Below are positions 2,940 to 54,541 of a DNA stretch of 64,000 bases, in pieces (the first letter of the stretch is position 1; each line of letters starts with the position of its first letter). The notes beneath the pieces were generated by a model. That model was given only the letters and a program-made list of their open reading frames with translations. It was not told the DNA's origin and did no database searches. Origin of the DNA: Octopus vulgaris (lineage: Eukaryota); NCBI GenBank assembly GCA_951406725.2, contig OX597827.1:8556001-8620000 (forward strand), written 5' to 3'. Made by a program: the position numbers and the translations under genes.

Positions 2940-3457
2940 TATATATATATATATAGTAGACACATCATACATAGATATTTAATTACTGTGTTTATTCTGG
3001 TTTTAGAATAAGTAAGCTGTGTTTCTATGTATTCTAAGAGGTGGTTGAAAAGGCTGGCAACAAGAAAGACACCATAAAAGATTGCCTTATAAAATAGGAA
3101 CCAGGATGACTATGAAACTGTCGTGGAGGCTTGTCAAAACTAACCTCACCACTTTAGCGAGGAAAACAGCCTAAACATTCAGAAGACACAGAGATAGTTG
3201 AAAAGGGAAGGAGGGGCGCGGAGACCATAAACATCTGAAAATAAAGCCTAGTAAAAGTGGCATCAGAAAACCACAAAGGAAGGTGATTCGGTAATATTCA
3301 GGAATGAACGGGGGAGGAAGATAATGGAAAGCATGAGGCTGGTTAATGACCAGGAAATATGGATGGAGGAGACTGAGCCTCTTGCTGTTTAAGTACAGCC
3401 GCACTATTTCACAGATGTTGATTGATTCCCACATTAAATAATATTTGGCGTAACTCA

Positions 3458-3872
3458 TTTACTCTTTTACTTGTTTCAGTCATCTGACTGCGGCCATGCT
3501 GGAGCACCACCTTTAGTCGAGCAAATCGACCCCGGGACTTATTCTTTTTGTAAGCCCAGTACTTATTCTATCGGTTTCTTTTGCCGAACCGCTAAGTGAC
3601 GGGGACGTAAACACACACCAGCATCGGTTGTCAAGCAATGCTAGGGGGACAAACACACACACACAAACATATACACACACACATACATACATATACATAT
3701 GCATATATACGACGGGCTTCTTTCAGTTTCCGTCTACCAAATCCACTCACAAGGCATTGGTCGGCCCGGGGCTATAGCAGAAGACACTTGCCCAAGATGC
3801 CACGCAGTGGGACTGAACCCGGAACCATGTGGTTGGTTAGCAAGCTACTTACCACACAGCCACTCCTGTGCC
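3458..3872 (-). mobile_element. SINE family A (tRNA head, CORE-like ccttgggcaagt block, internal microsatellite, (GTAAAAGA)n tail)
   Basis: Pol III A box TGGCTGTGTGG and B box GGTTCAGTCC; near-identical to many copies in the window. Confidence 0.9.
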
Positions 3873-4451
3873 TACTGAGAATACTTCTCAGTTTAATTAT
3901 TTTGCTTAAGTAACAAACTTTCCTATAGATGTCACTAAGGTATAAATTTATATCTCATGGTGCTGCACGTTTTACAATCCCGGTTAAATTTTATTTTTAT
4001 TACATTGGTCAAGGAATAGAAGCTGCATCCATTCTCTTATTAGGCCTTCTCTGACTAAATGAGATCATTTTTGTTGTTTTTGCTGTTCTGATGAAGATCA
4101 ATTCTGATCCATCAGAATTAAGATCAATAGCATTTGAACCTTGCCTATTATGTCTTCTGTCTTTCCCTTGAGTATTATGTATCTAGATATCATTCCGCGT
4201 GTCTTCCTTTTTTAATACAGCGGGGTGTAATTTGGGAAAGATTTGGCAGGTACTTATGGCAGATCAAATGACCACAAAAGGGCTCTCATATTTAGTGTTC
4301 TCATTTAACCCCAAGATCCACATCAGCCCTGACCGAAGCATCTAAGCTTTATGAAGTAAAGAATTCAAGCTATGACCATCCTGCCTTTTATTCAGACACA
4401 GCAAAAATTATGGACAAATTAATCAGTATGTCCCTTTAGTTAAAGATATTA

Positions 4452-4868
4452 GGCGCAGGAGTGGCTGTGTGGTATGTAGCTTGCTTACCAATCACATGGT
4501 TCCGGGTTCAGTCCCACTGTGTGGCACCTTGGGCAAGTGTCTTCTACTATAGCCTCAGGCCGACCAAAGCCTTGTGAGTGGATTTGGTAGACGGAAACTG
4601 AAAAGAAGCCCGTCGTATATATGTATATATGTGTATGTATATATATGTGTGTGTGTGTTTGTGTGTCTGTGTTTTTCTCCCCAACATCGCTTGACAACAG
4701 ATGTTTGTGTGTTTATATCCCCCGTAACTTAGCAGTTCGACAAAAGAGACCGATAGAATAAGTACTAGGCTTACAAAGAATAAGTACTGGGATCGATTTG
4801 CTCGACTAAAGGCGGTGCTCCAGCATGGCCACAGTCAAATGACTGAAACCAGTAAAAGAGTAAAAGAG
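4452..4868 (+). mobile_element. SINE family A
   Basis: ggcgcaggagtggctgtgtgg...ggttcagtccc...ccttgggcaagtg...aagtaaaagagtaaaagag. Confidence 0.9.
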
Positions 4869-6109
4869 TAGTTACTGGAGAGGGACTATGCTTCTATTTT
4901 TAGCAGATTGAATAAATATGCAAAGGTTCCACCCAATGTAGTTCACAAGCAGCTTCAATAAATTGATGTCCAGCTGTAAAATATGGTATAGTAGAGAGAA
5001 TATTACAGAAAGCTGCTGTTCTGAAGAGAAGAGATTGGCCAGTAGAGATTGGTTTTGCAGATGAGACAGAGTGGGATTGAATGATGAAAAAGGGAGAGGC
5101 AAATATAATAGATGGACTTTAAGGAAAGTGGTATTCAGTCAGTATATTAATTTAAAGAATTAGGGAACCATTGTTGTGGCAGAAGGGATATATGTATATG
5201 TATGTATGTGTGTGTGTGTATGTATAATCTCACACAGATACATCATCATCATCACATATATTATATATATGCATATATATACATATATATGTATATATAT
5301 ATAATACATACATATGTATGTAAATATATACAATATATATGCATACATACATGTATATGTGTGTGAGAGAGATATAGCTATATATACACACAGAAACACT
5401 CATTAGAGAGAGAGACAGAGACAGAGACAGACAGATAGATAGCACATGGTTGAAGCAGTAAGTGGCTGCATGTTTGTTGAATGAAGGTTTGCTAATCAGA
5501 TGGATAGCTAATTATTTGATGAGAGAGAGAGGAGTTCCAATTTAAAGTGTTTGCATTAGGCAGCTGCTCCACTCTCTGGTGGGAGCTTTCACTTGTGCTT
5601 TTTGTACAAACCCCGCCAACTGATTTAGGGTTGGGTTGAAGTACTTCCTAACCCCTGAAATGCAAATCCTCATAGACTCTAAGGATTTATCTCATAAAAG
5701 AAAAAATGAGGAAACAAACAAATGGAAGAATTTAAGAAGAGATAATTATGATTTTTTTTTTTTTTTTTTTTTGGTTTTCTTATTCGAAAGACTCTGCAAA
5801 GGATGTTAACTCTGAATCACATATATCTAATCAAATATATTATATACATTATATACATAGATCAATGATGTAGACTAATGTCTGGCATAACAAAATTAGA
5901 GTTGGAAATCTCATCCCTTTTTTTCTTAGAATTTCACAGGATTTGAATTGAGTGACAAATAGTGACATAACGAAGATCCGTGTTCTTTAGTTACCTTTTG
6001 ATTATAATGGGCGAGACCATAATGGAGCATTGCTTTCGTGTAGTCTTGTAATAGACATTTGGATTAAAACATGTTGATGTATAAGTATTGAAATACTTCA
6101 TGTTCCTCT

Positions 6110-21275: not shown

Positions 21276-21535
21276 TAGCATCTATCTGTGTTTTCTGCCA
21301 CTGAATGGCTGCTAAGTGAGTGTCTAAAAACTATCATAAGAATATCTATTTTAAGAAAATTAAAATCAATGGTGGGGGGTGTGCACCCACTATAAATAGA
21401 CAGGACGGTCATGATAAAAATGTTTTAGATCATTAGTCAGATTTCTCCAGGGTGACCTAGGGCAAAACAGAAACAAAAACAACAGCAACAACATAAATTC
21501 AATTAGTGAAATAATAATATCGAATTGTCACTCAC

Positions 21536-23956
21536 TTGTGATGTTTCTTCGGTGGTAGCCGGCCAAGGAATTCCTGTTTGCAAACTTTCTCTGTTAGGAT
21601 TCATTTGTCTCCTTGCATTCACAAGTTGTTGCATTTTGCTTTCCTCACCAGAAAGTGTTGTCACTGGGACATCATATTGAAATGACATAGGCTCCCCTAA
21701 ATCAGTTTGGTGGTTATCTTCTGAACTACGATAAGACATGTTTGTCCCACGTCTTAGTTTAGAATTTTTATTATTACTGCCTTTCACAATGCAAATTGTT
21801 ATAGACACAACAAGTACAACAGATACTGCTACTGCTGCAACAATGATAATGATGAATAAATTAATATGTATTTTGTTGTCAGACTGTGTATCAATAGCAG
21901 TGAATAATTTAGCTGTTGTATTGCTTACGGTTAGAGTTAAAGATAGTGTTGTTGTTGCTGATAAGCTTGGTGTGCCACTGTCTTTGACAGCCAAATGAAG
22001 CTCAAATGACCCAGCATCATTTTGATGAACTGGCCGAGAGAAAGACAATACTCCTGTGTAAGGATTAATGGCAAATAAATATTTAGCATTGCCTCCTCGA
22101 AGTTCATATTTAAGAAAAGCATTTTGTCGACTGTCTCGGTCTGCAGCTCTTAATGTTGTAATGTCACTTTTACTCTGCGGGTGGTAGTGAACATCAAGAC
22201 TGAATGGGTTAACACTGGGGAAGATGAAATATGGTGCATTGTCATTTTCGTCCATAATTTCCACAATAACCTTTGCCGTATCATTAAGTGACGGTACCCC
22301 ATTGTCTTTGACTAAAACTTTGAACTCATAAATTTCTTGCTGTTCACGGTCCAACAGTTTTGTAGTAGAGATAAATCCAAAATTAGATATTTCAAAAGGA
22401 AGAAAATGTCTATTGCTTTTGAATATCGTGTAAGTAAGATGACCTCCAGGTCCCAAATCAGGATCAGTAGCATTAACAAAGCCAACAGGAAAATTTGGCC
22501 TTTCATTCTCATAAGTTAGAAATTTAAAAGTATCTTTTGTGAATTGTGGTTGTACATCATTGACATCTATCACTTGAATGGAGAACTTTCTTTCTGTTTT
22601 CAGCGGAGGAGATCCTTTGTCTTGACAAGTTATAGTAAAATTTATATATTTCTCAATCTCTCTGTCAACACGATTTTTTATAACCACTTTATATTTCTTT
22701 ATTCCTCGACTCTGTAGTTGAAATTTATCACTGTCAAGATTACAGCTGATCTCTCCATTTTCTCCAATGTCATTATCAATAATTTTCAGATAAGCTATAA
22801 AGTTGCCAACTTGTATATCTTCAGAAATCATGGCAGTGCTTCCTGATGACTCTGAGAAGAAATTCATATCAATAGTAGGTGCATTGTTCTGTTGATTGAT
22901 AATATTTACAAGTATAACAACAATTGAACTCAAAGGTGGGCTACCTTCATCCCTGGCTTCAATAAATAACTTAAATCTTTTTCTCTTTTCTTGATTGTAT
23001 TGTTCATTAAGGAAAATTTCTCCAGTAATTTCATTTAATCTGAAGTATGTTTTAACCAGTTCAGAAGTTTTAGAACTAAAATAATACTGAACCTTGCTGT
23101 TTTTACCAGAATCCATGTCTGTTGCAACAATCATTGCAATTGGTCTATCTAGTTGGTGTCGGTTGTTAATGGTAACATTATAGAGATTTTGAGAGAATAC
23201 TGGAGAATTATCATTTATATCTCCTACAGATATTTCAACTTGTAATGTGCCTTGGTTCTGTGGAAAACCTGCATCTTTAGCAATGACTTCTAACATATAG
23301 GTCTCTTGTATCTCTCTGTCTAACTTATTTTCTAAAGTGATTCCAAGGGAATAAGAACCATCAACCCTTTTTGAAACGGCAAGTGAAAACGGATCATCAT
23401 GATTTTTTATTAATTCATAGTTGATCTGGGAGTTCAATAAGCCAACATCATTGTCAATAGCATTAGAAATTGATTTAGTCATTCCTTTTCGATCCCCTTC
23501 AGAGAATTGAAGCTGAATTAGTCTTTTAGGAAATTCAGGCCGATGGTCATTGATATCTTCTATAATTACCTTGATTTCTAATATTTTAATGAAAAATTTT
23601 TCTCTTTGCACAGCAACATCAAGCATTCTAAAGCATTCTTTATTGTAGCTACAAAGTGTCTCTGCATCTAGAGTCTGTGTGGTGTATAGTTTTCCTCTTT
23701 TGGTGACATTGAATAACTGAGGAATGTCAGAATTATGTTTTATTTGACTGAAACTTATCCGATCTTTGACTGGAAATGTTTCTACAAAATGGGTATCGAT
23801 GTCAATATCTCCAATATAAGTATTAGATCTTTTACCTTCTTCAACATGGTAAGTCACATCAACACAGAGACAAGATGTTATAAAGATCATGAGAAAAATC
23901 AACGGCATCAACATATCGCTAGTGAAAAATGTTGCTAAGCAACAGTGGTTGATCAT
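21536..23956 (-). CDS. PCDH: Protocadherin, large ectodomain exon (signal peptide, EC1-EC6, TM, proximal cytoplasmic tail); 807 codons, continues into downstream exon(s) not identified
   Basis: Within ORF 21503..24175. Cadherin motifs LDAE/LDRE/VDRE, AxDxD, DINDHRPEF, DINDNSPVF, DVNDVQPQF, DENDNAPYF; EC1 C-x5-C (CSYNKEC) typical of protocadherins; TM INLFIIIIVAAVAVSVVLVVSITICIV. Likely ATG at 23956 (MINHCC...), just after an acceptor ttttctttttt gtcag/ttgcag (exon start 23999 or 23993). Phase-0 donor CAA|GTGAGT at 21536/21535, so the ORF tail VSDNSILLFH is probably intron. An alternative downstream Met start cannot be excluded. Confidence 0.95.
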
Positions 23957-24982
23957 TTTTAAAGAGAGGGCCTCATGTGATGGTTCAGAAAATCTGCAAC
24001 TGACAAAAAAGAAAATAAACAAATTGTGTTTATATTGAGAATATATATACTTTCTTTCCAAAATACTTTTAAGGAGTGTTTTAAAAAAAGTGTGTTTATA
24101 CCCCATGTCATGCAGCAGAAATAGTGATAAGAAGAATTCACGAGAATTCATTCCTTCAAGAAGACACATATACAAAATTGATATGTTCGAATGTAGTTAT
24201 TTAGCAAGAGAAAAGCTTTATAGATATATATGTATATTTTTAACTATATTTTCTGGACTTGAAGGTGATAAGAATGTACAAGTATACATAAAATATAAGT
24301 TTTATGCTTCTGCAAGAAGAAAACCCTGCTGGGATGCTGCAAATGAAAAGTAAGCGTCATTGCAAGTGAAATTTTTCTTAAGACATTTTCTTTTAGCATT
24401 TCTAAATGGTGTAATAGCAAAATATCTGGCTGTGTCTTAACATCAAAAATCATCCTAATGTGTTATAAAATGTTACTATATCATGTGGAAAAGAAAAATG
24501 ATAAATAAATTTTTAAAAAAACTGGTGAGAGCCTAGAAAACATTACATCTTAAGAACTGTTTCAGTAGCTGATTCACTTCTTTACATTAAATATTAAAAA
24601 TTTTTTAAACTGAACAAAGTATTCAAAGTATGAATACATGCTTCACTAAAGATGATATCAATGGCTACATATAATTAAGTTAGACAGATATCTGTAATGT
24701 AAGCTGGATAATATCTAGGACAGTTACCAACTTTCTAAATCATTGAAGTAATTCGAGAATTATTTGGAGATAGTTTTGCCGAAAAACTCATCAATTATTG
24801 AAAAAAAACTAAAGCCATATCAGATACTGTTCTATCCAGTCTTCCTAAACTCTGAACCATAAAAAAAAAGAGAAGCTAAAATAAGTAAAATATAACTATG
24901 ACAAATGATTATATATATTTATATAAACACAACATTTCTATAATTATTCATAGTATGGCTATACCAGATCAATGGTAACAAT

Positions 24983-25105
24983 ATTTATTGACAGTAGCCC
25001 AAGAAATGATTTTTGGCACATTAATCCTATCAGTAGTCATGTCAAATATATCTGACAGAACCACATCATACCTCCTCTACACTTGTCAGCCTCTTTCACA
25101 TAAAA
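24983..25105. repeat. Left arm of a perfect 123-bp inverted duplication
   Basis: Exact reverse complement of 26541-26663; the ORF track shows the same peptide on opposite strands. Confidence 0.95.
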
Positions 25106-26458: not shown

Positions 26459-26529
26459 GCATCAGTGGTTCAGTGGTAGAATGCTCGCCTGCCATACAGG
26501 CGGCCCGGGTTCGTTTCGCGGCCGATGTA
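26459..26529 (+). tRNA. trnG: tRNA-Gly(GCC), probably a pseudogene
   Basis: GCATCAGTGGTTCAGTGGTAGAATGCTCGCCTGCCATACAGGCGGCCCGGGTTCGTTTCGCGGCCGATGTA matches the canonical 71-nt animal tRNA-Gly-GCC with ~7 substitutions that break pairs in the acceptor, anticodon and T stems and change the T-loop A58 to T. T7 terminator-like run at 26538-26544. Confidence 0.85.
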
Positions 26530-26540
26530 CAGATATGTTT

Positions 26541-26663
26541 TTTTATGTGAAAGAGGCTGACAAGTGTAGAGGAGGTATGATGTGGTTCTGTCAGATATAT
26601 TTGACATGACTACTGATAGGATTAATGTGCCAAAAATCATTTCTTGGGCTACTGTCAATAAAT
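26541..26663. repeat. Right arm of a perfect 123-bp inverted duplication
   Basis: Exact reverse complement of 24983-25105. Confidence 0.95.
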
Positions 26664-27312
26664 GTTTTTTTCGCAAATAGATTATTTTGATTAAAGGTGT
26701 TCTAGCTATAATAATAAACTATGTCTATCTCTTTCTTTTATAATGGCAGTGCCCCAGCATGGCCACAGCTCGTGAGCTGAAACTAGATAAAATTTAAAAA
26801 AAAATATATATATATATATTTATACACACATATATATCATCATCATCCTTATCATCATATATATATGTATATATGCATATAAATATTTATGTAAATATGT
26901 ACATAAATATATATGTCTCTGTGTTCACTTACACATACATAAATATATATGACTATATTGAGTCCATCATTATTATCATCATTTTTACTTTCCTTTCAAA
27001 GCTGGCATGAGTTAGAAGCAACATTACAATCTGTTCTAATTCTTATTTAGTTCTACTGCCTTCCTAGACAGGTCAGACAAACATGTCTGAAACACAGGGT
27101 TTACTTTTGGTATGATTTCTATGGAAAGACACTCTTCTTAACACCACCTATATTAGAGCGGGTACTGGGTGCTGGTTACAATGCCTCACACAATATTCAG
27201 CTAGGGTCTTTTGCAACCCACTAAGTACCAACTATTTTAAGCAAAGTGCTGAATGTGCTCTACTGTGGTCCCAACACTACAAAATTTGCACTGTACTCCA
27301 TAATATTAAATA

Positions 27313-27747: not shown

Positions 27748-28141
27748 AAGATAAGATAAGTGGCACTCCATCAGTTATGATGATGAAGGTTCCAGATGAT
27801 CTGATCAATGGAACAGCCTGCTTGTGAAATTAACATGCAAGTGGCTGAGGACTCCACAGACATGTGTACCCTTCACATAGTTCTTGGGAAGATTTAGCAT
27901 GACACAGAGTGTGACAAGGCTGACCCTTTGAAATACAGGTACAACAGAAACAAGGAAGAAAGATTGAAAGAAAGTTGTAGCAAATAAGTACAGCAGGGTT
28001 CACCATCACACCCTGCTGGAGCTTCATGGAGCTTTAGGCGTTTTCGCTCAATAAACACTCACCACACCCGGTCTGGGAATCGAAACTGCGATCCTACGAC
28101 CGCGAGTCCACTGCCCTAACCAATGGGCCATTGCGCCTCCA
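27748..28141 (-). mobile_element. SINE family C
   Basis: Reverse-complement homolog of 59531-59910, with an (ATCTT)n tail. Confidence 0.85.
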
Positions 28142-28278
28142 CTATATATATCTATATATACATACACCCGCACACACACACACACATACATATATATACA
28201 TATATGTATATATATATATATATATGAAAAAACAAGTCAAAAATAGAAAATGCTAAGATGATTTTATAGTGAATCTTT

Positions 28279-28316
28279 CAGTACCGGTTTCGGTCATTTT
28301 GAGACCTTTTCAACTG
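28279..28316 (-). ncRNA. Mirror copy of the minimal hammerhead motif in the left arm of the foldback
   Basis: Exact reverse complement of 28461-28498. Confidence 0.7.
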
Positions 28317-28460
28317 TAACGATTAAATAATTAAATTTAGAAAAATTTAGAAAAATTAGAAGAAAGGTTTTTTTAAAGGAATACTTCCATAGTAGTGTTC
28401 AGATATAAACCTTTCTTCTAATTTTTCTAAATTTTTCTAAATTTAATTATTTAATCATTA

Positions 28461-28498
28461 CAGTTGAAAAGGTCTCAAAATGACCGAAACCGGTACTG
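28461..28498 (+). ncRNA. Minimal type-I hammerhead ribozyme motif (Penelope type, U3-A8 covariant core)
   Basis: cag-TTGAAAA-ggtc-tcaaaat-gacc-GAAA-ccgg-TA-ctg: stem I cag/ctg, core U3UGAAA8A9, stem II ggtc/gacc, GAAA, palindromic stem III CCGG, GUA cleavage triplet. Confidence 0.7.
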
Positions 28499-28581
28499 AA
28501 AGATTCACTATAAAATCATCTTAGCATTTTCTATTTTTGACTTGTTTTTTCATATATATCAACTCGTGTGTTCCTTTCCAC

Positions 28582-28618
<37 letters not shown>

Positions 28619-43940: not shown

Positions 43941-44364
43941 TCTCTTTTTACTCTTTTACTTGTTTCAGCCATTTGACTGTGGCCATGCTGGAGCACCACC
44001 TTTAGTTGAGCAAACCGACCCCAGGGCTTATTCTTTGTAAGCCTAGTACTTATTATTCTATCGGTCTCTTTTGCCGAACCGCTAAGTTATGGGGATGCAA
44101 ACACACCAGCATCGGTTGTCAGGCGATGTTAGGGAGAGGGACAAACACAGATGCACAAACATATACACATACATACATACACATATATATATACATATAT
44201 ATGACGGGCTTCTTTCTGTTTCCATCTTCAAAATCCACTCTCAAGGCTTTGGTCAGCCCGAGGCAATAGTAGAAGACACTTGCTCAAGGTGCCATGCAGT
44301 GGGACTGAACCCGGAACCACGTGGCTGGTAAGCAAGCTACTTACCACACAGCCATTCCTACGCC
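43941..44364 (-). mobile_element. SINE family A
   Basis: Full-length match to other copies. Confidence 0.9.
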
Positions 44365-44859
44365 TATGGTGAAGAAAATCAGCAGGAGGTTTATTTAGGT
44401 CATGAAAATGTAATATAGACAACATTATCCAACTTGTCCTTCTTTAAGATGATGTGATGTTATTGACAGCTACATAGAGACTGCCTCATTGATTTGACAG
44501 CCAATAAAATGTAATAATTCTGAAGTTATTTTATATTGCATTCAGTACTTGAGTCCTTCAGTTCTTTAAGCTTTCTGTCAATAAGCATATTTTGAATTTG
44601 TAGGCCTGAAATATTCCTTTTTTTTAGTCCTTTATGTTACAGTGGCTTCAAGCCTTGTTTGGGAAAAAATTGTGAAAAAGAAAAAACAAAAATGAGAATG
44701 AGAACAATGGTTGCTGGTTGCAGTTTTTCCAGTAGACAAAGCATTGGTTCACTGCATATTCAATAATAAGGGTGATTAGGAATAATTTTTGCCAGTTGGG
44801 CGGAATGAATATTACCACTCGTTATTTTTGAGGTTTCTTAAAAAAAAGAAAATCTTATA

Positions 44860-45024
44860 GGCATAGGAGTGGCTGTGTGGTAAGTAGCTTGCTTACCAAC
44901 CACATGGTTCCAGGTTCAGTTCCGCTGCGTGGTACCTTGGGCAAGTGTCTTCTACTATAGCCTCAGGTTGACCAAAGCCTTGAGAGTAGATTTGATAGGT
45001 GGAAACTGAAAGAAGCCCGTCGTA

Positions 45025-45070
<46 letters not shown>

Positions 45071-45286
45071 CATATGTTTGTGTGTCTGTGTTTGTCCCCC
45101 CAACATCGCTTGACAACCGATGCTGGTGTGTTTACGTTCCCGTAACTTAGCAGTTCGGCAAAAGGGACCGATAGAATAAGTACTAGGCTTACAAAGAATA
45201 AGTCCTGGGATCGATTTGCTTGACTAAAGGCAGTGCCCCAGCATGGCCACAGTCAAATGACTGAAACAAGTAAAAGTGTAAAAGAG
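44860..45286 (+). mobile_element. SINE family A
   Basis: Full-length match to other copies. Confidence 0.9.
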
Positions 45287-53244: not shown

Positions 53245-54541
53245 TTGGGTCATCCCGTAAATAATGCAGTTTTTTCAATTGCATGATCTAAAAGTCGGAG
53301 GAGGATGATGGCACAAACTACCTGCATCAATTTGCTATAAAAGCAGGCAGTAATTTTACCTTGTCCTTATTTTCAGTGCAAGCTTTTGAAAAGTGCCATT
53401 TGATTTTAACAGTTATTTTTTCGAAACTATAATGGAAGTGACAAAGGAGCATATTCAGCATATTTTGCTTTATGAGTTCAAGAAAGCCAACAACACAACA
53501 GAAAGTGTGAGGAATATTAATGTAGTATACGGGGATCAGACAATAAGCGTAAGCCAGTGTCAATGGTGGTTCCAGAAATTCCAAGCTGGAAACTACAGCC
53601 TAGAAGACAAGCCTCATTCTGGAAGATCTGTAGAGCTCAATCAGGTTGTCAAACAAACCCTGGTAGATCAAAATCCCATTGTAACTGTTGAGGAACAAGC
53701 AGAGAAGCTGGGATTTGGTTATTCACCCATTCACTGACACCTGTGTGCCATCAGAAAAGTCAGGAAATTGGGTCAATGGGTTCCTCATAAATTTTCCAAG
53801 TCTAATCGCATGCAGAGAGTGAACGTATGTTCTTCTTTGCTGTGATGTCTCATGAATGAACCATTTTTGGACTGAATAGTGACTGGTGATGAGAAATGGG
53901 TTCTCTATAAAAATGTCAAGTGTCAAAGACAGTGGGTTGGGAAAGGAGAATCACTGGAACCCCAGGTTAAAGAAGGTCTTCACCCACTTAAAGTGTTGTT
54001 ATCTGTTTGGTGGGATATGAAAGGTTTAGTCCACTTTGAACTTTTAAACCCAAACCAAATAATAATAAAGGAGATCTACTGCAAGCTGCTTGAGTGGCTT
54101 AAGTCAGCATTAGAAGAAAAACAACCATCTTTGGTTTCAAGACAAAAGGTGTTCTTCCATTAGGATAATGCTTGGCCACATACGACAAGGATAACATTCC
54201 AAAAGCTGGAGCAGTTTGAATGGGAAACGATGTCCCACCTACCATATTCACCAGACATTGCCCCATCTGATTTATTATTTATTCCACAGTCTTCAAAATC
54301 AGTTGGACAGAAAAAATATGAATTCTGTTGATGAGGTCAGAACAGTACTGGAAGAGTATTTTTTGTCATGGACAACTGAATTTTTGGAAGAGGGGCATTG
54401 CAAGTCTACCAGGTAGATGGAAGAGCATTGTAGAAAATGAAGGAGAGTATATTTTAGATTAAAAAAAAAACATCTTTGTTTATCTTAATTTTGAAAAATA
54501 AAAGAAGTATAAAAAACTGCATTATTTATGGGATGACTCTA
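53245..54541 (+). mobile_element. Mariner (D,D34D-type) DNA transposon, full length but decayed
   Basis: ~31-bp TIRs (ttgggtcatcccgtaaataatgcagtttttt / aaaaaactgcattatttatgggatgactcta), TA on the left, ~1.3 kb. Transposase motifs WVPH, VTGDEKWVLY, H*DNAWPH, PYSPDIAPSD, with several stops and frameshifts (ORF pieces 53393..53737, 53879..54163). Confidence 0.93.

What the first reader, a model, noticed from the sequence alone, without database searches (positions are those of the whole stretch)
28218..28559. Near-perfect 340-bp foldback carrying two mirror-image minimal hammerhead ribozymes with a covariant U3-A8 core
Seen: ~150-bp arms, each containing cag-UUGAAAA-ggtc(7)gacc-GAAA-ccgg-UA-ctg. 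Established: the hammerhead core C3-G8 pair can covary to U3-A8, and minimal type-I hammerheads with a short palindromic stem III mark Penelope-like element pseudo-LTRs and are thought to act as dimers. Inference: this is a young non-autonomous Penelope-type unit that searches for CTGANGA would miss. Transcription from either strand, including the inferred protocadherin intron 1, yields one sense ribozyme plus its perfect antisense. Co-transcriptional folding order would then decide between self-cleavage and a long dsRNA that ADAR could edit.
Basis: partly seen in the sequence, partly recalled or inferred. Interest (0 to 1): 0.8.

Follow-up and report, generated by a model that had tools for sequence, protein, structure and literature searches.

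The report
Head-to-head Penelope ends, locked hammerheads
This 360-base hairpin is two short, mirror-image end-pieces of a very abundant repeat that is likely copied by Penelope-type jumping genes, and its two miniature self-cutting RNA motifs (an already published variant) are predicted to be zipped shut by each other, so it is most likely ordinary genomic debris of a known kind.

Summary
In detail: 153-bp arms (152/153 complementary), each with a minimal type I hammerhead whose core is U3-A8. The interpretation needs correcting. In four public runs the sequence is a very abundant repeat. The 36-nt 'loop' belongs to the left copy and runs on into a longer parent, and a 32-nt tail (28553-28584) belongs to the right copy only. 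So the insertion is 28225-28584: two 5'-truncated ends set head to head in (TA)n with a one-sided tail, the published footprint of Penelope-like elements. U3-A8 is the family norm and is published for Penelope hammerheads. No folding switch is predicted: read-through from either side makes the antisense arm first, and the ribozyme fold costs 59-67 kcal/mol. Selection on the core was not shown (0/13 vs 14/132 variable places, p=0.25). The parent (autonomous element or retrozyme), cleavage, the intron position and editing are untested. One lead: the tailless end falls on a TATATAT inside the element, which could pair with the (TA)n target. New member of a known kind; interest 0.25.

The parts
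28207..28224 (.). Left (TA)n target microsatellite; its last 7 nt mirror the element's internal TATATAT (28553-28559)
   Evidence: sequence; identity past the arm end is 7 nt
28225..28407 (-). Left copy: 183-nt 5'-truncated element end, tailless, includes the apparent loop
   Evidence: loose ends at 28407/28408 continue into the same further sequence in 4 of 4 runs; run X14 record 11 matches 28318-28407 with 0 differences and has 30 more letters
28276..28319 (-). Minimal type I hammerhead, U3-A8 core (U3 at 28313), predicted cut after 28282
   Evidence: descriptor hit; Rfam HH9 22.9 bits, below gathering score
28371..28406 (-). 36-nt unpaired centre: the extra 5' part of the left copy, not a designed loop
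   Evidence: family-level depth across it in all 4 runs and contigs that run through it
28407..28407 (.). Head-to-head junction; this one base fits both copies
   Evidence: sequence and loose-end rows at 28407/28408
28408..28584 (+). Right copy: 177-nt 5'-truncated element end with tail
28458..28501 (+). Minimal type I hammerhead: helix I CAG/CUG (+2 bp past a mismatch), core U3-A9 28464-28470, helix II 28471-74/28482-85, GAAA 28486-89, palindromic ACCGGU, predicted cut after A28495
   Evidence: descriptor hit; isolated fold P(helix II) 0.96, P(helix I) 0.56
28553..28584 (+). One-sided 32-nt tail beginning with TATATAT
   Evidence: summed depth at 28561-28576 of 83,710 / 460,052 / 16,508 / 321 in the 4 runs; diverged contigs span arm end and tail; other contigs leave at 28559 into TA repeats
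28585..28614 (.). Right (TA)n target microsatellite; no target-site duplication can be discerned
   Evidence: sequence

Best explanation
The hairpin consists of two short, 5'-truncated copies of the end of a very abundant hammerhead-bearing repeat, joined head to head in a TA microsatellite with a tail on one side only; it was likely written in one insertion event by a Penelope-type enzyme, and its ribozymes are predicted to be locked in a duplex. SHOWN: the anatomy, the abundance of the family, the longer parent, the one-sided tail, U3-A8 as the family state. INFERRED mechanism: the endonuclease nicks both strands of (TA)n. The top-strand end primes cDNA at the element's inner start site (28552, tailless) and the bottom-strand end primes at the outer site (28584, tailed). 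The cDNAs stop after 183 and 177 nt and are joined at their ends with one shared base. Both arms cover the same stretch, so the template would be a tandem or circular RNA, or two RNAs from one source. In the parent RNA the hammerhead would cut only as a dimer through ACCGGU, or with protein help. At this locus read-through makes a ~150-bp dsRNA and no ribozyme. Whether the parent is an autonomous element or a non-coding retrozyme is open (about even).
For:: 1026, 1220, 416 and 22 contigs laid in 4 runs from at least 3 organism labels. The centre continues into a longer parent in 4 of 4 runs. The tail has family-level depth, and tailless ends leave at 28559 into TA repeats (20 contigs in X3, 9 in X9). 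One contig shows a different head-to-head joint (28383>28464). Published layout: inverted 5'-truncated copy plus a 30-40-bp one-sided tail (PMC8557442 passages; PMC3846280 passages). In vitro a Penelope protein cuts and extends both strands from two start sites that bound the tail (PMC11167929 parts 1-2). U3-A8 minimal hammerheads and pairs on opposite strands 100-700 bp apart are reported for Schistosoma Penelope elements (PMC4209133). Both arms carry an allele (28366/28411) seen in only 3-8% of family depth, which fits one source. Folding.
Against: No reverse transcriptase or GIY-YIG gene was linked to the repeat: none among 129 window ORFs scanned, no genome held, and no match to the Hydra, Naiad or Chlamys consensus sequences in 6 short word searches (line breaks in that file can hide matches). 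Core conservation is not significant (0/13 vs 14/132, p=0.25; whole ribozyme 3/44 vs 11/101, p=0.33). No listed contig bridges this locus's own junction (32 of 2689 pieces shown), so read support for the locus itself is indirect. Summed contig depth is not a copy number. The double-hammerhead fold (-18.5 kcal/mol) is not favoured over two monomers (2 x -9.8) in nearest-neighbour energies.
Confidence: 0.8

Rival explanations
1. Same element, but the second arm arose by fold-back self-priming of one cDNA (or of an antisense RNA), or the arms were homogenised by conversion after insertion, rather than by priming from both DNA strands.
For: Arms share a rare allele and differ at one CpG only. Self-priming on an antisense template was proposed for head-to-head Penelope copies (PMC3846280 passage).
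Against: Geometry (sequence): the loop belongs to the left copy, so only a left-first fold-back is possible, and that copy has no tail to template 28560-28584. The junction shares one base and has no palindrome.
Confidence: 0.09
2. The whole foldback is a mobile non-autonomous unit, and folding order acts as a switch between self-cleavage and an ADAR-edited hairpin in protocadherin pre-mRNA.
For: Intact motifs in both arms. The isolated motif folds helices I and II. The family is present in an RNA-like run (X14; RNA is a guess).
Against: The antisense arm is transcribed first from either side; the ribozyme fold has P about 1e-42 to 1e-48; only transcripts starting at or after about 28320 escape. 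The centre differs in another copy and runs into a longer parent. The single A>G place in X14 (28503) is also in the DNA runs.
Confidence: 0.04
3. A DNA-transposon MITE with long terminal inverted repeats (TG...CA) and a TA duplication; the hammerhead match is inherited or accidental.
For: Symmetric TGAAAAAAC...GTTTTTTCA ends between TA dinucleotides; a mariner-type transposase remnant lies elsewhere in the window (53390-54160).
Against: One-sided tail at family-level depth, centre continuing into a longer body, a different joint in another copy; complete hammerhead with palindromic helix III, 0 of 40 shuffles.
Confidence: 0.05
4. Assembly or library fold-back artefact.
For: Near-perfect palindrome between microsatellites; no listed contig bridges the junction.
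Against: The arms differ by a CpG transition, the flanks are not mirrored beyond TA repeats, and the two ends coincide with the family's two end points.
Confidence: 0.02

Closest known systems
Insertions of endonuclease-bearing Penelope-like elements with inverted 5'-truncated pLTR and one-sided 30-40-bp tail (Pen2a_Av, PMC3846280 passages; PMC8557442 passages and sections 11, 15)
   Same: Head-to-head truncated ends, 32-nt tail on one side, hammerhead about 90-120 nt from the end, microsatellite target without discernible TSD.
   Different: Both copies are under 190 nt, with no ORF; no parent ORF was identified.
U3-A8 minimal hammerheads of Cercyon Penelope elements, Schistosoma mansoni (Cervera & De la Pena 2014, PMC4209133 parts 1-2 of 4); natural U3-A8 also in Perreault et al. 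2011 (PMC3088659 passages)
   Same: Type I, U3-A8 core, G10.1-C11.1, palindromic 15.2-16.2, pairs on opposite strands 100-700 bp apart.
   Different: Helix II is 4 bp (7-8 bp there), no extra base after A9, 4-nt CCGG in helix III; sequence unrelated.
Hydra-clade Penelope-like elements, e.g. Hydra-1_Obim and Penelope-13_HM (PMC8557442 section 11, supplement parts 2 and 52)
   Same: (TA)n target; hammerhead near the 3' end; Penelope-13_HM has an inverted copy with a hammerhead on each strand.
   Different: All Hydra hammerheads in that table have a C3-G8 core; the Hydra-1_Obim hammerhead is a different sequence; protein features could not be tested.
Animal non-LTR retrozymes (PMC7229834 passages; bioRxiv 10.64898/2026.07.22.740005 part 1 of 5)
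   Same: Non-coding, low-GC, type I hammerhead, linked to Penelope pLTRs.
   Different: No tandem array or monomer length was shown here; the hammerhead is minimal rather than classical.
PAc (Anolis Poseidon) in vitro mechanism (Frangieh et al. 2024, PMC11167929 parts 1-2 of 4)
   Same: Two start sites bounding a tail; both strands extended; AT-rich target.
   Different: PAc starts at template sites not homologous to the cut DNA; here the inner end sits on a TATATAT that matches the target for 7 nt.

Membership tests
Minimal type I hammerhead | Core N3UGANN8A / GAAA / UH with a Watson-Crick 3-8 pair | tested here: met
   U3-A8; no variant of 5% or more at 13 core places in 4 runs
Minimal type I hammerhead | Helices I and II can form; helix III palindromic | tested here: met
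   isolated P(helix II) 0.96, P(helix I) 0.56; ACCGGU
Minimal type I hammerhead | Purifying selection or covariation among copies | tested here: inconclusive
   0/13 vs 14/132, p=0.25. Two of the three variable places inside are the partners G10.1>A and C11.1>U, but linkage cannot be seen. Some diverged contigs leave at the outer edge of helix I (28276, 28319).
Minimal type I hammerhead | Rfam hammerhead gathering score | tested here: not met
   23 bits against 52 for HH9; none at gathering level in the window
Minimal type I hammerhead | Self-cleavage | not testable with these tools
   bench assay needed
EN+ Penelope-like element insertion | Inverted 5'-truncated copy next to a direct copy, head to head | tested here: met
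EN+ Penelope-like element insertion | One-sided 30-40-bp tail | tested here: met
   32 nt, 28553-28584
EN+ Penelope-like element insertion | Hammerhead within the terminal repeat | tested here: met
EN+ Penelope-like element insertion | Parent with RT + GIY-YIG ORF | tested here: inconclusive
   none in the window (129 ORFs); no genome held; only 30 nt of the parent seen beyond the junction
Hydra clade | (TA)n insertion | tested here: met
Hydra clade | RT/EN motifs (DKT, RWK, no CCHH) | not testable with these tools
   no protein linked; the hammerhead differs from Hydra-1_Obim
Non-LTR retrozyme | Tandem non-coding monomers and circular RNA | not testable with these tools
   no tandem copy in the window; only contigs
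MITE | Fixed unit with symmetric ends and constant centre | tested here: not met
   one-sided tail, centre part of a longer element, different joint in another copy

The most novel reading that the evidence does not exclude
This TA-targeting family carries its own primer-alignment site. The tailless start falls on a UAUAUAU inside the RNA, so the nicked (TA)n end pairs with the template before extension, as telomerase does, unlike the non-homologous start reported for PAc. Microsatellite targeting would then be partly RNA-guided. The palindromic ACCGGU of the hammerhead would hold two template copies together for a dimeric enzyme that primes both strands, which makes two-armed insertions. I found neither idea in 3 paper searches (listings only) or in the parts of PMC11167929, PMC8557442 and PMC3846280 that I read.
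Probability: 0.25. Interest if true: 0.55.

Novelty: new member of a known kind. Interest (0 to 1): 0.25.

Why it matters
As it stands, little: it adds one more U3-A8 hammerhead family and one more two-armed Penelope-type footprint, both described before. Its use is as a clean, young record of how such insertions form (tailless start on one strand, tailed start on the other, one source), which can be counted across thousands of copies. If the internal TATATAT guides priming, it would bear on the open question of why Penelope elements prefer microsatellites. The long dsRNA could be an editing or RNAi substrate if the locus is transcribed, but nothing here shows that.

Tried and rejected
No genome was held, so no genome-wide copy search. 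Window searches by blastn and nhmmer found no second copy; weak hits at 4837, 55974, 38077 and 62660 are other repeats or AT-rich chance. A 25-nt motif of the parent's continuation had 0 matches in the window. Two metagenome scans and one viral scan gave 0 hits. Look-ups of earlier findings by sequence gave 0. Pfam on 129 of 132 listed ORFs (3 inside the cadherin ORF left out) found no RT or GIY-YIG. The three frames of the left copy show no recognisable protein end. I first took 28517 and 28520 as rare alleles shared by both arms and dropped them, because contigs are split between mirror places; only 28366/28411 stands. Rfam microRNA hits are artefacts of the palindrome and TA repeats. The low depth at 28417-28464 reflects contigs being laid on the other arm and is not a finding. 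Supplement file 1 of PMC4209133 could not be searched and may hold closer hammerheads. Lunse et al. 2017 on dimeric Penelope hammerheads is recalled, not read.

Full report
Observation. The foldback is real. Arms 28218-28370 and 28407-28559 are 153 nt, 99% complementary and 36 nt apart, with one mismatch, 28320/28457, a CG>CA transition in the right arm. Each arm holds a minimal type I hammerhead: helix I CAG/CUG (two more pairs past an A-A mismatch), U3UGAAA8A9, helix II GGUC/GACC, GAAA, a palindromic ACCGGU, and a predicted cut after A28495 (mirror 28282). My descriptor, which allowed five kinds of 3-8 pair, found exactly these two sites in 64 kb. Forty shuffled windows gave 0.35 loose hits each and none with a palindromic helix III and a 4-bp helix II. 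Rfam's best hammerhead match was below threshold (HH9, 23 of 52 bits). The genome looks octopus-type; this is inferred from the protocadherin ORF, the repeat style (recalled) and unchecked earlier notes.

What it is. No genome was held, so the family was studied through public contigs. Of 24 runs listed, 20 hold part of the stretch; four were laid on 28145-28600. They gave 1026, 1220, 416 and 22 contigs, with summed depths of 1e5-7e5 in the two deepest runs, against 19.6 for one contig at a single joint. That points to thousands of copies, as an order of magnitude only, since the tool warns that depth is no copy number. Three things change the anatomy. First, the 'loop' is covered at family depth, and in 4 of 4 runs contigs leave at 28407/28408 into the same further sequence; X14 record 11 matches 28318-28407 without a difference and goes on for 30 letters. 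The loop is therefore the extra 5' part of the left copy, which is a truncated piece of a longer parent of the same haplotype. Second, 28553-28584 also has family depth and is spanned by diverged contigs, while other contigs leave at 28559 into TA repeats (20 in X3, 9 in X9; 24 of 215 loose-end rows were shown). The family thus has a tailless and a tailed end 32 nt apart, and this locus has one of each. Third, one X1 contig joins 28383 to 28464, a head-to-head copy with another centre. The insertion is 28225-28584: a 183-nt tailless copy (minus) and a 177-nt tailed copy (plus), sharing one base at 28407, in (TA)n without a discernible duplication.

The ribozyme in the family. No difference reaching 5% was listed at any of the 13 core places in the four runs, so U3-A8 is the family state, not a covariation seen within it. 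Folded onto one arm, 14 of 145 places vary: 0 of 13 in the core against 14 of 132 elsewhere (Fisher p=0.25), and 3 of 44 in the whole motif against 11 of 101 (p=0.33). Selection is therefore not shown. Two weak hints favour it: two of the three inside changes are the partners G10.1>A (3-6%) and C11.1>U (0-16%), and some diverged contigs leave exactly at the outer edge of helix I (28276, 28319). Linkage cannot be seen in these tables. Both arms carry the allele at 28366/28411 that makes up only 3-8% of depth, which fits one source for both arms; two other places that I first counted were dropped because contigs are split between mirror positions.

How it most likely works. Inferred from the anatomy and from PMC11167929 (parts 1-2 of 4 read), where a purified Penelope protein cuts and extends both DNA strands and starts at two RNA sites that bound the tail: both nicked strands of the (TA)n tract primed cDNA, one at each start site, both stopped early, and the ends were joined. 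Since the arms overlap in sequence, the template must be tandem, circular, or two RNAs from one source. Fold-back self-priming (proposed in PMC3846280, passage) fits badly, because the loop belongs to the tailless copy, which cannot template the tail. At this locus the ribozymes are predicted to be silent. They point outward, so read-through from either side makes the antisense arm first. The constrained ribozyme fold lies 59-67 kcal/mol above the ensemble at every length tested on both strands, and only transcripts starting at or after about 28320 keep helix II (P 0.7-0.96). A lone copy cannot close helix III, and the mirror copy is on the other strand. The double-hammerhead fold scored -18.5 kcal/mol against 2 x -9.8 for monomers, so even the dimer is marginal by these energies, in line with the low or protein-dependent activity reported. 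A cadherin ORF (21506-24196, minus; PF00028, E 2e-70) with a likely acceptor near 23994 lies 4.2 kb away, but its upstream exon was not located. The only A>G place in the RNA-like run is also in the DNA runs.

Comparison. The layout is that of endonuclease-bearing Penelope-like insertions (PMC8557442, passages, sections 11 and 15, supplement parts 2 and 52; PMC3846280, passages). U3-A8 minimal hammerheads, about 1,300 hits, and opposite-strand pairs were reported in Schistosoma (PMC4209133, parts 1-2 of 4), and natural U3-A8 earlier (PMC3088659, passages). It works like a Penelope end and meets three structural features; the fourth, a parent with RT and GIY-YIG, was not found, so clade membership is open. 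It is not Hydra-1_Obim, whose hammerhead differs. A non-coding retrozyme parent is about as likely; earlier notes on this genome describe such U3-A8 families (unchecked; look-ups by sequence found no match). A 2026 repeat annotation of Octopus vulgaris counts recently active Penelope families and does not contain the word hammerhead (PMC13282606, passages).

Novelty. New member of a known kind. The one lead is that the tailless end falls on a TATATAT inside the element that matches the target for 7 nt, so the primer could pair with the template. It may equally be a relic of an older insertion into (TA)n. I found no such proposal in three searches (listings only). Interest 0.25.

Noticed in passing
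window 21506-24196 (-): 897-aa protocadherin-like ORF, 5 cadherin domains passing the E-value cut, with a likely splice acceptor near 23994 just upstream of the ATG.
   Followed up: partly
window 24977-25105 and 26541-26669: 129-bp inverted repeat, 98.5% identical, 1.4 kb apart, starting within the dsRNA-forming range upstream of the protocadherin ORF; not examined for an element type.
   Followed up: no
window 26459-26529 (+): tRNA-like sequence (Rfam RF00005, 33 bits; not called by ARAGORN) between a TA tract and the right arm of that inverted repeat; probably a pseudogene or SINE head.
   Followed up: partly
window 53390-54160 (+): Broken mariner/Mos1-type transposase (PF17906, PF01359).
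   Followed up: no
window 3453-4869 and 43946-45283: Two further inverted pairs of about 430 bp, 85-89% identical; possible dsRNA-forming repeats.
   Followed up: no
window ~28010-28143: SINE-like repeat directly left of the TA tract (identification recalled, not tested).
   Followed up: no
window 28502-28503: A GA>TG subfamily variant is 1% of depth in run X1 but 61%, 76% and 100% in X3, X9 and X14; it would extend helix I without a bulge. Shares from contigs are rough.
   Followed up: partly
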